From assembly GCF_009914755.1 (NCBI RefSeq), contig NC_060930.1: a stretch of DNA of 64,000 nucleotides; one strand, written 5' to 3'. Positions within the stretch are counted from its first letter, which is position 1. Every line of letters begins with the position of its first letter. Origin of the DNA: the human T2T-CHM13v2.0 reference genome, Homo sapiens. The notes beneath the pieces are model-generated. The model ran no database searches. It saw nothing but the letters and a program-made list of their open reading frames with translations, and had not been told where the DNA came from. Positions 29,711-35,563 of this stretch are shown here, piece by piece. The position numbers and the translations under genes are program-made.

Positions 29711-29885
29711 CTGGTGAAACCCTATAAGCGTTTCCACTCCATACGCGCTCTGAATAATGGGATTGTGATGTCTTACACCAATTCTCAAACTGGGCGGCCA
29801 GCTGCAGCTGAATCAACTCCAGGTGCCCGTAGTTGCGATACCAAGAGTAGTAGCTGTTCACACGGATCACATCCACATACAGAGC
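29711..29885 (-). pseudogene. GUSBP: GUSB exon 10 homolog (175 bp; 2-bp deletion; SEYG changed to SAYG)
   Basis: CCTAG|GCTCTGTATGTGGAT ... TTTCACCAG|GTAAGC; [38 protein letters not shown], then the GUSB frame shifts to [20 protein letters not shown]. Confidence 0.95.
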
Positions 29886-29986
29886 CTAGGACCAGAGTAG
29901 CAGAGCCCGTTCAGCAACCACAAGACCGCATGACTCAGTACTCACATGCTGTGGGGGCTCCTCTGACAGAGAAGGTAAGAAGGGGA

Positions 29987-32900
29987 TGTAATCCCAGCAC
30001 TCCGGGAGGCTGAGGCAGGAGGGTGGCTTGTGGCCAGGAGTTCAAGACCAGCCTGGGCAACACAGCAAGACCCCAGCTCTACAAAAAATAGTATCAAGAA
30101 AATTAGCACGGCACAGTGGCTCATGCCTGTAATCCCAGCAGATTGGGAGGCCAAGGTGGGAGGATCACTTGAGCCCAGGAGTTTGAGACCAGCCTGGGCA
30201 ACATCGTAGGACTCCATTTCTACAAAACAAAACAAAAAGCCTAGAACGGGAAGAGCTGCCTCTCGGGGCTGAGAACGTCCAACTGCACCAATTTAGATCC
30301 TGAAATTACCCTGCCCCACCAGCAAAAAACATGGTCACAAAGTGGCCCAAAGGAGGCAGGCCTGTGATTGCACACTGACGCTCATGACGTGTGCAGCTGG
30401 GAAGGGCTGTGAGAGGCAGAGCAGCTGCCAACACGCAGTCCTCAGCCAAAACCCAGGGCCCCCGCCACTGGAACTGACTCCTCTCCAGGCAGCACTCCCA
30501 GCACTGGGCATCCCCTCACCTTGCCCTGGAGAAGCGCTCCCACCCAAGGGGCCAATGCACTCATTCTCGCAGATAATCTTTTTTCGCTTTGTTTGGAAGA
30601 CAGAGTCTCGCTCTGTTGCCCAGGCTAGAATGGAGTGGCACGATAGTGCAACCTCTGCCTTCCATGATCAAGCACAGGCGTGGTGGCATGTGCCTGTTAT
30701 CCCAGCTACTTGGGAGGCTGAGGCAGGAGAATTGCTTGAACCTGGGAGGCGGAGGTTGCAGTGAGCTGAGACTGTGCCACTGCACTCCAGCCTGGGCAAC
30801 AGAGCAAGACTCTATCTTTAAAAAAAAAAAAAGAATGCTAGTATCAACCAGGCACGGTGGCTCATGCCTGTAATCCCAGCACTTTAGGAGGCTAAGGCAG
30901 GAGGATCACTTGAGCTCAAGAGTTTGAGACTGGCCTGGGCAACATAGTGAGATCCCATCTCTACAAAAACATTTAAAATTAGCCGGGCACAGTGGTGTAC
31001 ACCCGGAGTCCCAGCTACTTGGAAGGCTGAGGCAAGAGGGTTGCTTAGGCCCAGGAATTCAAGGCTGCAGTGAGCTGTGATCACACCACTGCACTCCAGC
31101 CAGAGCAACAGAGTAAGACCTTGCCTTCACAAAAAAAAAAAAAAAAAAAAAAAAAAAAAAAAAAAAACTCAGGTTCCAACCCTGGAGTTACTAAATCGGG
31201 ATCTCAGAAGGCAGAGATCTGGCATTTCAATAAAACTTCTGGAGATTCTGATCAGCCAGGTTTGGGCCAGATGAACTCTAAGCTCACTTAAACCTTTGAC
31301 ATTTTATGAGTCTATTAAGTCGAGTACAAAAAATGCTGAGTCCAAACTGAGCAAACAAATCCCATCTCCCTATGCCCAGCCTCCTTGGATTCAGAAAGCC
31401 ACACTGCCTGGAGAGTAAGCAGAGAGAGAATTGTCATTAACCCAAAGACCATCTTTGAAAACAGACTGGCTGCGGCTGAGTGCGGTGGCACACGCCTGTA
31501 ACCCCAGCCCTTTGGAAGGCCGAGGCAGGAGGATCACTTGAGCCCAGGAGTTCGAGACCAGCCTGGGCAACATGGCAAGACCCTGTCTCTATCTTTCTAA
31601 GTAAAACAAAATAAAAAGCTCAGACTGGCAGCACATGGTTCTTTCCAGCTGTTCCCATGAGCAGGCTTCAGGACAAGCCCAGGCAAAGGCAGGGAGAAAT
31701 GGGGTGGGGACCCCCAGGCTCACCCCCTTGTCTGCTGCGTAGGTGGAGTTGGTCACAAAGGTCACAGGCTGGGAGGGGTCCAAGGCTTTGGTGTGAGCAA
31801 TCACCATCCTGTCCACAAAAGAGAGAAGACACAGGTTCCGTCAGTCCGGGAAAGGCTAAGACACCCTCCCATCCTCTCTGTCCCATCTTCCCCTGACAGA
31901 ACACAACTGGGGGCCAGGTATGATGGCTCACATCTGTAATCCCAGCACTTCAGGAGGCTGAGGCAGGCAGATCACTGAGGTCAGGAGTTCAAGAACAGCC
32001 TGGCCAACATGGCAAAATCCCATTTCTACTAAATATACAAAAATTAGCCAGGCATAGTGGCACGCATCTGTAACTCCAGCTACTCAGGAGGCTGAGGCAC
32101 AAGAATTGCTTGAACCCGGGAGGTGGAGGTTGCAGTGAGCCGAAATCACGCTACTGCACTCCAGCCTGGGCCACAGAGCAAGACCCTGCCCCAAAACAAA
32201 CAAACAAACAAACAAACAAAAAAAAAAAAAGAAAGAAAGAAAAGAAAAAAAAAAACAAAGCACAGAGCCGCTGCTTTCTTCCCTAACTTGAGATGTGTTT
32301 TACATAAGGGCACGTTCCTCTAGTCCTAGACCGAGCTCTCTAACATCACTCTTTCTCCCCCACCCCTGAATCCAATTCCCCCAGAGGCGTAGCCACCCTG
32401 CCAGGTACACAGAGCTGAGGTCACTGGACTGAACACTGCCAAAAATGAGGTTCGCTTCCTGAAATAACTCTTGAACACAGGAGTGAATGGGCTGTGGATT
32501 CAGGTGGAATATTTATTAATGCATCAAGCAAACAGGTAGTGCGAGGTGGGAGGTAGGCACGGGGCTGGGTGCTAGGTGCTCAGTAATGACTCAAATCTAA
32601 GTCCACAGGTCCTGGGCAGTGGGAGTGGAGATGCATGCACAGAAAAACGGTGCAAGTGCCAGGCGAGGTGGCTCACGCCTAGAACCCCAGCACTTTGGGA
32701 GGCTTACTTGAGACCAGGCGCTTGAGACCAGCCTGGGCAACATAGCAAGACCTTGTTTCTACAACAAATTTAAAAATTAGGGCTGGGCATGGTGGCTCAA
32801 GCCTGTGAGCACTTTGGGAGGCCAAGGCAGGTGGATCACGAGGTCAAGAGTTCGAGACCAGCCTGGCCAACATGGTGAAACCCCATCTCAACAAAAAATA

Positions 32901-33785
32901 AAGAAGAAAACTAGCTGGGCATGGTGGCGTGAGCCTGTAATCCCAGCTACTCGGGAGGGTGAGGCAGAACTGTTTGAACCCAGGAGGTAGAGGATGCAGT
33001 GAGCCAAGATCGCAACACTGCTCTCCAGCCTGGGTGACGGAGCAAGACTCTGACTCGTGGGGAAAAAAAATATTAAAATGTAGCCTGGCAAGGCAGCGCA
33101 CGTCTGTGATCCCAGCTGTATGGGAGGCTGAGTGGGGAGGATCGCTTAAGCCCAGGAGGTCGAGATGGCAACAAGCTATGATTGCACCACTGCACTCCAG
33201 CCTGGGCAACAGAGTGAGACCCTGACTCTGAAAAACAAACAATGAAAGAAATGTTGCGAATGGAAATGACAAGTGGTGGCAGGAATTGGGCACTCTATGA
33301 GACAACAGACACATCCCGGATTGGAGAGTCAGGGACAGGCTCTTAGAAGAAATGGCCTTTATGCTGAGTCAAGTTAACCAGGAGGGATGAAGGGAAGAGG
33401 CTCCCAACAGAGGGACCAGTCCGTGCTCAGAGCTCCCAGCATCTGCCCAAGGCCTCCACAGAACAGACTGTTGTGTTTTTGTTTTGTTTTGTTTTTTTGA
33501 GATAGAGTCTCATTCTGTAGCCCAGGCTGGAATGCAGTGGCATTATCTCAGCTCACTGCAATCTCTGCCTCCTGGTTCACCTGAGGCGATTCTCCTGCCT
33601 CAGCCTACCTAGTAGCTGGGATTACAGACGTCCACCACCATGCCCAGCTAATTTTTGTATTTTTAGTAGAGACAGGATTCACTACCTGTTGACCAGGCTG
33701 GTCTCGAACTCCTGACCTCAGGTGATCCACCCACCTCAGCCTCCCAAACTGCTGGGATTACAGGCGTGACCCACTGCATCCGGCC
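29987..33785. mobile_element. Alu cluster in GUSBP introns 8/9: chimeric inverted Alu 30578-30832, nested Alu 32658-33245, MER5-like piece ~31168-31290
   Basis: Multiple full and partial Alu consensus matches on both strands. Confidence 0.9.
31724..31808 (-). pseudogene. GUSBP: GUSB exon 9 homolog (85 bp)
   Basis: GGACAG|GATGGTGATT ... AAGGGG|GTGAGC; [28 protein letters not shown]. Confidence 0.95.
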
Positions 33786-34417: not shown

Positions 34418-34611
34418 CTATGACAGCCAAAGCGCCAGGTGTGAGCGCCCCGACAGCCTGAACCCCATCTGGCCTGCCCTACAGCAGGAAGACCCCTCGT
34501 GCATGCACCCCAGCAGTCGCCTCTGGGCCTGCAGAGCAGCAGCAATCAGAGGCTCTGCCCTTCACTGGCTGACCCTGGGACCTGCCCTTCAAAATCAGGC
34601 CTTCTCCTTGA

Positions 34612-35230
34612 CCAGACGAGGTGGCTCATGCCTGGAATCCCTACACTTTGGGAGGCTAAGGCAGGAGGATCACCTGAGTCCAGGAGTTCAAGACCAGCCT
34701 GGGCAACAGAGTAAGACCCCAACTCTACAAAAAGGATTTTTTTTTTGAGACAGTCTCACTCTGTCACCCAGGATAGAGTGCAGTGGCATGATCTCAATTC
34801 GCCGCAGCCCCTGCCTCCTGGGTTCAAGCAATTCCCCTGCCTCAGCCTCCCGAGTAGCTGGGATAACAGATGTGCACCATCATGCCCTGCAAATTTTCAT
34901 ATTTTAGTAGAGACGGGGTTTCACCATGTTGGCCAGGCTGGTCTCCAACTCCTGGCCTAAAGTGATCCGCCCGCGTCAGCCTCCCGAAGTGCTGGGATTA
35001 CAGGCGTGAGCCACCATGCCCGGCCTACAAAAAAAATTTTTTTAATTAGCCAGGCATGGTGGCATGTGCCTGTAGTCCCAGCTACTCAGGAGGCCAAGGT
35101 AGGAGGATTGCAGCTCAAAGCTGCAGTGAGCTGTGATCAGGCCATTGCATTCCAGCCTGGGTGACAGAGTGAGACCATCACACACAAAAAAAATAAAAAT
35201 AAATAAATAAATAAATAAATAAATAAAAAA
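34612..35230. mobile_element. Nested Alus: + strand AluJ-like split by a minus-strand AluS-like copy (34737-35025)
   Basis: Left arm, inverted full Alu flanked by repeated CTACAAAAA, right arm with (TAAA)n tail. Confidence 0.85.
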
Positions 35231-35375
35231 TCTGGGCCTCCCACCAAGGGTGGGAAACATCAGAAAGCTCAGAGGACCACACCTGCCCGTTCACCTGTCC
35301 TAGGCTCCTGCTGAAGCCAGGGCTACCAGATGGGGGCAAAAGACCTCCCTTAAGCAAGTCCCAAACCACCATTAC

Positions 35376-35563
35376 CTCCCACGAGTACAGGTAGGCGGGG
35401 TGTTCGTGCATCAGGTACGGCCACCAGAGGTTGGCACCCAGCACCTTCAGCTGGCCCTGGGTCCCAGCCTGGTTGTCCACGACTTTGTTTTCTGCATTCA
35501 AAAGACACACTTCCAGCTTGAACTGGTTACTGCACTTGACGGAGATCTGGTAATTCACCAGCC
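35376..35563 (-). pseudogene. GUSBP: GUSB exon 5 homolog (188 bp, open)
   Basis: CTGCAG|GGCTGGTGAATTAC ... TGGGAG|GTAATG; [62 protein letters not shown]. Confidence 0.95.

What the first reader, a model, noticed from the sequence alone, without database searches (positions are those of the whole stretch)
29711..35563. GUSB pseudogene exons could form a 540-nt circular RNA with a stop-free (infinite) reading frame
Seen in sequence: minus-strand exons 5 (188 nt), truncated 6 (92 nt), 9 (85 nt) and 10 (175 nt) sum to 540 nt = 180 codons. By hand, the joined frame reads G-LVNYQ...[14 protein letters not shown] / VRLTAQKSLGPLTSTHSLWGSALCLSPRAS-G / MVIAH...ADKG / ALYVD...[25 protein letters not shown] with no stop. 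The single G left at the end of exon 10 completes the GG at the start of exon 5 (GGG), so a back-splice re-enters the same frame; two in-frame AUGs are present. The pseudogenising lesions (exon 6 frameshift and truncation, 2-bp loss in exon 10) are what make the length divisible by 3. The block is bracketed by oppositely oriented Alus: 35673-36275 (-), ~110 nt from the exon 5 acceptor, and 29149-29445 (+), ~265 nt from the exon 10 donor. Established: inverted intronic Alus promote back-splicing, and stop-free circular ORFs can undergo rolling-circle translation. Inference: this locus may make a circRNA templating a tandemly repeated 180-aa GUSB-chimeric polypeptide. The linear version stops in exon 11 (GSTSDVQ*).
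Basis: partly seen in the sequence, partly recalled or inferred. Interest (0 to 1): 0.88.

Follow-up and report, generated by a model that had tools for sequence, protein, structure and literature searches.

The report
GUSBP2 circular RNA with conditional endless ORF
This stretch is the exon 5-10 core of a beta-glucuronidase pseudogene already reported to make a circular RNA, and it reads without a stop codon only if an unannotated 92-base exon is spliced in, so the endless protein remains an untested, fairly ordinary possibility.

Summary
Minus-strand exons of 188, 92, 85 and 175 nt have AG/GT borders, sum to 540 nt, and one circular frame has no stop and two AUGs. The flanking Alus are oppositely oriented.

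Back-splicing is not new. circGUSBP2 is in print, as passages in PMC6789028 and PMC10918493. The published circGUSBP1 interval spans 5876 nt, exactly the exon 5 acceptor to exon 10 donor distance in one GUSBP1 copy.

The weak link is the 92-nt exon. Its donor lies in 14 nt of filler at a pseudogene-specific deletion junction. Its acceptor has the poorest pyrimidine tract. 0 of 6 RefSeq transcripts on chr6 use it. The annotated exon set gives a 448-nt circle, which is not 3n and carries a finite 210-codon ORF.

The stop-free property is shared by 17 of 17 complete paralogs but evolves neutrally: pN/pS is 0.86. It is also cheap: 3 of 25 possible circles at this locus are stop-free. Stop-free circRNA ORFs are common in the literature, and circGUSBP1 was reported as nuclear.

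Verdict: real sequence, known circRNA locus, speculative translation.

The parts
35376..35563 (-). GUSBP2 exon homologous to GUSB exon 5 (188 nt). It is the acceptor side of the back-splice and is read in the parental frame in the stop-free ORF.
   Evidence: AG acceptor, GTAATG donor. (gapless alignment to GUSB exon 5). (in RefSeq NR_003504.3). (weak PF00703 fragment).
34326..34417 (-). Hypothetical 92-nt neo-exon: the parental exon 6 acceptor plus a pseudogene-specific donor G|GTGAGA. It is required for the 540-nt, 3n circle and is not annotated.
   Evidence: AG/GT. (4-bp deletion between 34386 and 34385; homology to exon 6 ends at about 34329). (best donor within 400 nt by a recalled PWM, 7.0 bits). 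(pyrimidine tract 11/18, the weakest). (0 of 6 RefSeq transcripts use it).
34315..34328 (-). 14-nt filler at the junction of the deletion that removed the 3' part of exon 6, exon 7 and exon 8. It holds the neo-donor GT (34325-34324) and repeats the 9 nt at 34337-34329.
   Evidence: homology to GUSB stops at about 34329 and resumes at 34314, about 1.98 kb further along in GUSB; the GUSBP7 and GUSBP19 copies keep the full exon 6.
31724..31808 (-). Exon homologous to GUSB exon 9 (85 nt). It carries the in-frame AUG with G at -3 and +4.
   Evidence: (PF02836 fragment).
29711..29885 (-). Exon homologous to GUSB exon 10 (175 nt, with a 2-bp deletion between 29771 and 29770). It is the donor side of the back-splice.
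   Evidence: (the published circGUSBP1 sense primer maps at 29752-29733 with 1 mismatch).
35680..36275 (-). Two tandem Alus, sense in the pre-RNA, about 115 nt upstream of the exon 5 acceptor (35680-35975 and 36014-36275).
   Evidence: (predicted duplexes with downstream Alus of -287 to -461 kcal/mol).
25843..29446 (+). Six Alus antisense in the pre-RNA, plus one sense Alu at 26719-27142, in the 4.5-kb intron after exon 10. The nearest is 29150-29446, 265 nt from the donor.
37116..38047 (+). Two plus-strand Alus in the same upstream intron. They can pair with the proximal minus-strand Alus and so compete with cross-exon pairing.
   Evidence: (-369 to -499 kcal/mol with the two upstream minus-strand Alus; -499 and -473 with the nearer one, stronger than any of its cross-flank pairs).
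25054..25189 (-). Next exon (GUSB exon 11 homologue). The linear reading stops here after GSTSDVQ.

Best explanation
The interval is the exon 5 to exon 10 core of GUSBP2. GUSBP2 is one copy of a young, multi-copy family of unprocessed GUSB pseudogene fragments.

The block has canonical splice sites. It sits between a 36-kb upstream intron and a 4.5-kb downstream intron that carry oppositely oriented Alus. It back-splices exon 10 to exon 5 to give the already reported circGUSBP2.

The main product is most likely the three-exon, 448-nt circle made of the annotated exons. That circle is not a multiple of three and carries only a finite 210-codon ORF across the junction.

The 540-nt stop-free frame is a real but incidental by-product of lesions that arose before the family amplified: a 4-bp deletion, a deletion from exon 6 to intron 8, and a 2-bp deletion. 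It exists as RNA only if a neo-donor in the deletion junction is used.

Shown here: the sequence facts, family-wide sharing, neutral evolution, and the Alu layout. Taken from papers: that circles exist. Inferred: the exon content of the circle and the lack of meaningful translation.
For: Splice sites and frames.

Exon usage: RefSeq joins exon 5 to exon 9 to exon 10 in 6 of 6 chr6 transcripts.

Origin of the neo-donor.

Weak exon 6 acceptor: pyrimidines 11/18, against 14-15/18 for the annotated exons.

Alu layout: two minus-strand Alus upstream and six plus-strand Alus downstream, with strong predicted duplexes.

Family: exon 5 has 24 other copies at 97-99% identity, the parent at 87% and GUSBP6 at 80%.
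- Of the 20 copies fetched, 17 have all four exons.
- All 17 are 540 nt with AG/GT borders and a stop-free frame.
- 23 variant sites split 17 nonsynonymous to 6 synonymous, pN/pS 0.86.
- The chance of no stop arising among 23 variants is 0.29.
- Exon divergence is 3-9 differences in 540 nt; whole-block divergence is 1.6-1.9%.

Literature:
- circGUSBP2 has a circular-to-linear proportion of 0.99-1 in blood cells (PMC6789028) and accounts for almost all host expression in leukaemia (PMC10918493).
- The circGUSBP1 interval spans 5876 nt, equal to the span in L048.
Against: I could not see the coordinates or exon content of the published circGUSBP2; they are in closed supplements.

The 92-nt donor scores as well as the exon 5 and exon 9 donors (7.0 against 6.9 and 7.8 bits, from a recalled PWM). 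Inclusion in some molecules is therefore plausible.

RefSeq linear models need not reflect the content of circles.

Copies differ from the window by only 2-4 nt within 50 nt either side of the junction, so published read assignment to GUSBP2 rather than a paralog may be imperfect.
Confidence: 0.68

Rival explanations
1. A 540-nt circle including the 92-nt exon is made from this locus, and ribosomes translate it round and round into a tandem 180-aa GUSB-chimeric polypeptide.
For: The circle is 540 nt with 0 stops in one frame. The AUG at position 282 has G at -3 and +4.

The neo-donor is the best donor within 400 nt of the acceptor.

The Alu layout is favourable.

Endogenous stop-free circRNAs have been reported to be translated: circEGFR, circ-E-Cad, circASPH, circCORO1C and tau circles (PMC11263353), and circPSAP, circPFAS and circABHD12 (bioRxiv 473207).
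Against: 0 of 6 RefSeq transcripts use the exon, and its acceptor is the weakest.

The paralogous circGUSBP1 was reported as predominantly nuclear.

There is no purifying selection on the frame.

The unit holds only fragments of two domains, both below Pfam cut-offs.

No paper in the searched library holds both 'GUSBP' and 'rolling circle'.
Confidence: 0.04
2. The 540-nt isoform exists as a minor species beside the 448-nt circle, but it is a non-coding RNA (nuclear, protein-bound) like most circRNAs.
For: The neo-donor has a decent score.

Circles often carry exons not seen in linear models (general knowledge, not tested here).

circGUSBP1 is reported as nuclear and co-precipitated with FUS.
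Against: No data on isoform content were visible to me. Annotation argues against inclusion.
Confidence: 0.2
3. This locus itself makes little or no circle. Reads called circGUSBP2 come from near-identical paralogs such as GUSBP1, GUSBP3 or GUSBP4.
For: There are 24 other copies at 97-99% identity. Only 2-4 differences lie within 50 nt either side of the junction.
Against: Those 2-4 differences are enough for 100-nt reads. The window carries a private A 15 nt upstream of the junction, not seen in any of the 17 paralogs. Splice sites and Alus are intact here. Two independent papers name GUSBP2.
Confidence: 0.08

Closest known systems
circGUSBP1 (chr5:21491429-21497305 in PMC12038242) and circGUSBP2 (PMC6789028, PMC10918493)
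   Same: Same duplicon and same back-splice, exon 10 donor to exon 5 acceptor. The published interval spans 5876 nt, equal to the span in GUSBP1 copy L048. The published divergent primers map to exon 10 and exon 9 of the window with 1 and 0 mismatches.
   Different: None of the passages I saw mentions an ORF, the 92-nt exon or translation. I could not see the exon content or the GUSBP2 coordinates, which are in closed supplements.
Endogenous circRNAs with stop-free (rolling-circle) ORFs: circEGFR, circ-E-Cad, circASPH, circCORO1C, tau 12->7, circPSAP, circPFAS, circABHD12
   Same: A circle length of 3n, no in-frame stop, and an in-frame AUG (examples taken).
   Different: Those circles use annotated exons of protein-coding genes and have reporter or mass-spectrometry support. 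Here the host is a pseudogene, the frame depends on an unannotated exon, and there are no translation data.
Alu-mediated exon circularisation (inverted intronic repeats flanking the circularised exons; recalled from Jeck 2013, Zhang 2014, and Liang and Wilusz 2014, not read here)
   Same: Oppositely oriented Alus lie within 115 and 265 nt of the two splice sites, and there is a long upstream intron.
   Different: Competing inverted Alus lie in the same upstream intron and in the internal introns. One within-intron pair is predicted to be stronger than every cross-flank pair: -499 against -384 to -461 kcal/mol.
Unprocessed GUSB pseudogene family (GUSBP1-19)
   Same: It keeps the parental introns and exon borders, carries disabling deletions, and belongs to a recently amplified duplicon.
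   Different: Nothing sets this copy apart except a few private substitutions.

Membership tests
Exonic circRNA formed by back-splicing | Canonical AG acceptor at the first exon and GT donor at the last exon of the circle | tested here: met
   exon 5 is preceded by ag, and exon 10 is followed by gtaagc.
Exonic circRNA formed by back-splicing | Inverted complementary repeats in the two flanking introns | tested here: met
   two minus-strand Alus upstream and six plus-strand Alus downstream, with predicted duplexes of -287 to -461 kcal/mol. Competing pairs also exist.
Exonic circRNA formed by back-splicing | Back-splice junction reads or RNase R-resistant product from this locus | not testable with these tools
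Passages in PMC6789028 and PMC10918493 name circGUSBP2, but the coordinates are in supplements that are closed.
circRNA with a rolling-circle (stop-free) ORF | Circle length divisible by three | tested here: inconclusive
   Met for the four-exon set, 540 nt. Not met for the RefSeq exon set, 448 nt.
circRNA with a rolling-circle (stop-free) ORF | One frame without a stop, with an in-frame start codon | tested here: met
   for the 540-nt composition only.
circRNA with a rolling-circle (stop-free) ORF | The stop-free isoform actually exists as RNA | not testable with these tools
   No reads were available. 0 of 6 RefSeq transcripts include the 92-nt exon.
circRNA with a rolling-circle (stop-free) ORF | Concatemer protein ladder or junction peptides | not testable with these tools
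   No proteomic or ribosome data here. 0 papers hold both 'GUSBP' and 'rolling circle'.
Unprocessed pseudogene of GUSB | Parental intron-exon structure retained, with disabling lesions | tested here: met
   colinear homology to GUSB at 82-87%, a 4-bp deletion, loss of exon 6 (3' part) through exon 8, and a 2-bp deletion in exon 10.
ORF maintained by selection (a true coding sequence) | Excess of synonymous over nonsynonymous change among copies | tested here: not met
   17 nonsynonymous to 6 synonymous variant sites, pN/pS 0.86. Exon divergence is similar to that of the whole block.

The most novel reading that the evidence does not exclude
The GUSBP duplicon has at least 18 copies that all keep the property, several of them in copy-number-variable arrays. 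It may be a hominid-specific, multi-locus source of stop-free circles.

Besides the 540-nt form, a 273-nt circle of exon 5 plus exon 9 is also 3n and stop-free with an in-frame AUG. It is built from RefSeq-annotated exons only, and it holds in the window and in 17 of 17 paralogs.

If even a minor fraction of these abundant circles reaches the cytoplasm, they could be translated round and round. The product would be repeat polypeptides made of GUSB fragments that are prone to misfolding, are rapidly degraded, and are potentially antigenic.
Probability: 0.05. Interest if true: 0.6.

Novelty: new member of a known kind. Interest (0 to 1): 0.27.

Why it matters
If the stop-free isoform were made and translated, a non-coding pseudogene family would yield a repeat protein. 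That would add a pseudogene-derived case to the short list of endogenous rolling-circle products, and its dosage would vary with GUSBP copy number.

As it stands, the value is practical.
- It shows that the circle is already catalogued.
- It shows that the frame is an inherited accident shared by the whole family.
- It identifies which assay separates the readings: 288 nt against 380 nt with published primers.

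Tried and rejected
Protein search. I searched for cDNA-derived proteins that might show the exon 5 to 92-nt junction. The search for homologous proteins with the 62-aa exon 5 peptide found nothing. That search sees only proteins of 34-108 aa, and 14 candidates of unnamed source were left out, so the blank says little. I did not search the 30-aa piece, because the length window would make it useless.

Pfam. A scan of the four exon peptides gave only sub-threshold fragments of PF00703 and PF02836, and nothing for the 92-nt piece. A folded domain is therefore unlikely.

Rfam. A scan of 24000-40000 at gathering scores gave 0 matches.

ORF list. The six-frame list for 29000-36500 showed 11 ORFs of at least 90 aa. 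I did not examine them individually.

Selection. I considered whether family-wide conservation of the stop-free frame shows selection. I rejected this: pN/pS is 0.86, and a 0.29 chance of no stop is expected from drift alone.

Cherry-picking. I considered whether the 92-nt donor was chosen to fit. I rejected this, because it is the best of 4 candidate donors within 400 nt. That score uses donor-site frequencies recalled from memory, not a tool.

Literature.
- 'GUSBP2' with 'circular RNA' or 'circRNA' found only reviews and lncRNA lists.
- 'GUSBP1' with 'hsa_circ' gave no usable table.
- PMC5865691 and PMC7046790 mention GUSBP only as a qPCR assay or as a lncRNA.
- circInter6p22 in PMC12330939 has no coordinates in the text.

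Not attempted.
- Structure prediction was not run, because the joined 180-aa unit cannot be passed by reference.
- Ape comparison was not possible with these tools.
- Supplements were closed and I did not ask for them. Supplementary Table 4 of PMC6789028, Table S6 of PMC12330939 and the supplements of PMC12038242 may hold the coordinates, isoform lengths or gels that would settle the exon content.

Full report
**What is in the sequence**

I read the interval on the minus strand and cut the four proposed exons by coordinate.
- Exon 5: 35563-35376, 188 nt.
- The 92-nt piece: 34417-34326.
- Exon 9: 31808-31724, 85 nt.
- Exon 10: 29885-29711, 175 nt.

Each is preceded by AG and followed by GT. The donors are gtaatg, gtgaga, gtgagc and gtaagc. 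Joined, they give 540 nt. One circular frame has no stop, and the other two have 12 and 4.

In-frame AUGs lie at circle positions 153 (weak context) and 282 (G at -3 and +4). The linear continuation into the next exon reads GSTSDVQ and then stops.

**What the annotation says**

RefSeq NR_003504.3 uses exons 5, 9 and 10 but joins exon 5 straight to exon 9. The five RefSeq transcripts of the chr6 paralog (GUSBP4 and LINC00680-GUSBP4) do the same. So 0 of 6 transcripts contain the 92-nt piece.

Without it the circle is 448 nt, which is not a multiple of three, and all frames stop. That circle still has a 210-codon ORF. It starts at the exon 9 AUG, crosses the back-splice junction and runs 1.4 laps.

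**Where the 92-nt exon comes from**

I aligned the region to the parent GUSB gene, fetched from the same reference.
- Exons 5 and 9 have the parental borders.
- Exon 10 lacks 2 bp.
- Exon 6 lacks 4 bp after its first 36 bases.
- Homology to exon 6 stops at about 34329 and resumes at 34314, about 1.98 kb further along GUSB.
- The 3' part of exon 6, exon 7 and exon 8 are therefore deleted.

The 14 nt between the two homology blocks (34328-34315) are filler that repeats the preceding 9 nt. The proposed donor GT (34325-34324) lies in this filler, so the donor is a pseudogene-specific neo-site.

Two older copies, GUSBP7 and GUSBP19, keep the whole of exon 6 with the same 4-bp deletion. The small deletion therefore came first and the large one later.

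With donor frequencies recalled from memory, the neo-donor scores 7.0 bits. Exons 5, 9 and 10 score 6.9, 7.8 and 11.1. The acceptor, however, has the poorest pyrimidine tract: 11 of 18, against 14-15 of 18 for the annotated exons.

**Flanking repeats**

I used one Alu of the window as a probe.
- The upstream intron is about 36 kb in all and runs beyond the window.
- It has two minus-strand Alus at 35680-35975 and 36014-36275.
- The 4.5-kb downstream intron has six plus-strand Alus and one minus-strand Alu. The nearest is 29150-29446.

Predicted duplex energies between the upstream and downstream Alus are -287 to -461 kcal/mol.

There is competition. Plus-strand Alus in the same upstream intron (37116-37411 and 37741-38047) pair at -369 to -499 kcal/mol with the two upstream Alus. 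With the nearer one (35680-35975) they reach -499 and -473, stronger than any of its cross-flank pairs. Plus-strand Alus in the internal introns pair at up to -447. Smaller circles are therefore also expected.

**The family**

Exon 5 has 27 matches in the reference: the window itself, 24 other copies at 97-99% identity, the parent at 87% and GUSBP6 at 80%.

I fetched 20 of the 24 copies.
- 17 of the 20 have all four exons without gaps. All 17 have AG/GT at every border including the neo-donor, total 540 nt, and are stop-free in the same frame.
- The 3 incomplete ones are GUSBP7 and GUSBP19 (full exon 6, no exon 10 in the stretch fetched) and GUSBP18 (no exon 10 in the stretch).

It does not indicate selection.
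- The 18 copies show 23 variant sites, 17 nonsynonymous and 6 synonymous, giving pN/pS 0.86.
- 5.2% of possible substitutions would create a stop, so 23 variants would leave the frame open 29% of the time by chance.
- Exon divergence from the window is 3-9 of 540, close to the 1.6-1.9% of the whole block including introns.

**How special is a stop-free circle here?**

Most of the frame is the parental GUSB frame and is open by descent. Only two shifted stretches of 19 codons each are new, and shuffles leave both open in 19% of trials. With the two frame coincidences this gives about 2% for this particular circle.

I then enumerated the 25 circles that six consecutive exons can form, with the 92-nt piece optional. 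Seven are 3n and three are stop-free:
- the 540-nt circle;
- a 177-nt circle;
- a 273-nt circle of exon 5 plus exon 9, which needs no unannotated exon and has an in-frame AUG.

The 273-nt circle is also stop-free in 17 of 17 paralogs.

**What is in print**

The back-splice is known.
- PMC12038242, Table 1 (section read), lists an annotated, qRT-PCR-checked circRNA of GUSBP1 at chr5:21491429-21497305. This is a span of 5876, identical to the exon 5 acceptor to exon 10 donor span in GUSBP1 copy L048. The two other GUSBP1 copies I held span 5873 and 5881. From recall of another coordinate in the same table, I take the coordinates to be hg19.
- PMC6626923 (primer table read) gives circGUSBP1 primers that map in the window to exon 10 (sense, 1 mismatch) and exon 9 (antisense, 0 mismatches). 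They are divergent on the linear RNA.
- circGUSBP2 itself is named in PMC6789028 with a circular-to-linear proportion of 0.99-1 in B cells, T cells and monocytes. PMC10918493 describes it as accounting for almost all expression of its host gene (passages only, coordinates are in supplements that are closed).
- PMC12330939 (passages) reports circGUSBP1 as predominantly nuclear in two glioblastoma lines and co-precipitated with FUS.
- A preprint (10.1101/2025.11.16.688748, passage) lists a circGUSBP1 among P-body-enriched circles.

No paper in the searched library holds both 'GUSBP' and 'rolling circle'. I found no statement about an ORF in these circles in the passages I read.

**How common stop-free circRNA ORFs are**

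- The preprint 10.1101/473207 (passages) defines rolling-circle ORFs. It gives a ratio of finite to stop-free ORFs of about 3.4 among endogenous circRNAs. It shows reporter ladders for three of them, with rapid proteasomal loss of the products.
- PMC6487579 (passages) finds stop-free ORFs in 8% of AUG circRNAs and no evidence that these are translated.
- PMC11263353 (passages) lists circEGFR, circ-E-Cad, circASPH, circCORO1C, circALTO1 and tau circles as endogenous cases.

The kind is therefore established, and the bare property is frequent.

**Judgement**

The sequence observation is confirmed. The circle is real by the literature and is already catalogued.

The endless reading frame is conditional on a neo-exon that no annotation supports. 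It is inherited by the whole family, evolves neutrally, and encodes only fragments of two GUSB domains.

I rate the probabilities as follows:
- existence of a minor 540-nt isoform without meaningful translation, about 0.2;
- the plain reading (448-nt circle, incidental frame), about 0.68.

The most useful new points are the 273-nt stop-free circle from annotated exons, the 288-nt against 380-nt discriminating assay, and the fact that the proposed junction peptide is uninformative.

Noticed in passing
window 35376-35563 plus 31724-31808 (minus strand): A circle of exon 5 plus exon 9 alone is 273 nt, a multiple of three. It is stop-free with an in-frame AUG and uses only RefSeq-annotated exons. 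The same holds in 17 of 17 paralogs. Plus-strand Alus in the exon 9-10 intron could pair with the upstream Alus.
   Followed up: partly
G000 chr5:21497099-21598753 and chr5:34304627-34427444: The duplicon forms tandem arrays in T2T-CHM13: six copies spaced about 20.3 kb apart at the GUSBP1/GUSBP14 locus, and seven copies spaced about 20.4 kb apart near GUSBP18.
   Followed up: no
window 28504-35973 versus GUSB (L001, L003, L002): The pseudogene block is only 82-87% identical to the parent gene, while the copies are 98% or more identical to each other. This suggests an old founding duplication followed by a recent burst.
   Followed up: partly
window 34315-34337 (minus strand): The deletion junction carries a 9-nt direct repeat separated by 5 nt, which looks like repair filler. 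It is shared by all 17 complete paralogs and absent from GUSBP7 and GUSBP19, which keep the full exon 6.
   Followed up: partly
window 29725 (minus strand), 15 nt upstream of the exon 10 donor: The window has an A where all 17 complete paralogs have G. This is a handy marker for locus-specific junction reads. Whether it is fixed in people cannot be told from one reference.
   Followed up: no
window 32186-33042: RefSeq lists an H3K27ac hESC enhancer inside the intron between the 92-nt piece and exon 9. It overlaps three Alu segments.
   Followed up: no
chr6:26824933 / 26825372, outside the window: The 5' end of GUSBP2 lies about 440 bp from the start of LINC00240 on the opposite strand, which looks like a shared bidirectional promoter.
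   Followed up: no
window about 31130-31167 (minus strand): There is a run of about 37 T in the transcript sense in the exon 9-10 intron, at the end of an antisense Alu.
   Followed up: no
PMC12330939, text only: The glioblastoma paper mentions an unannotated intergenic circRNA from 6p22.1 ('circInter6p22') with no coordinates in the text. I could not tell whether it lies near this window.
   Followed up: no
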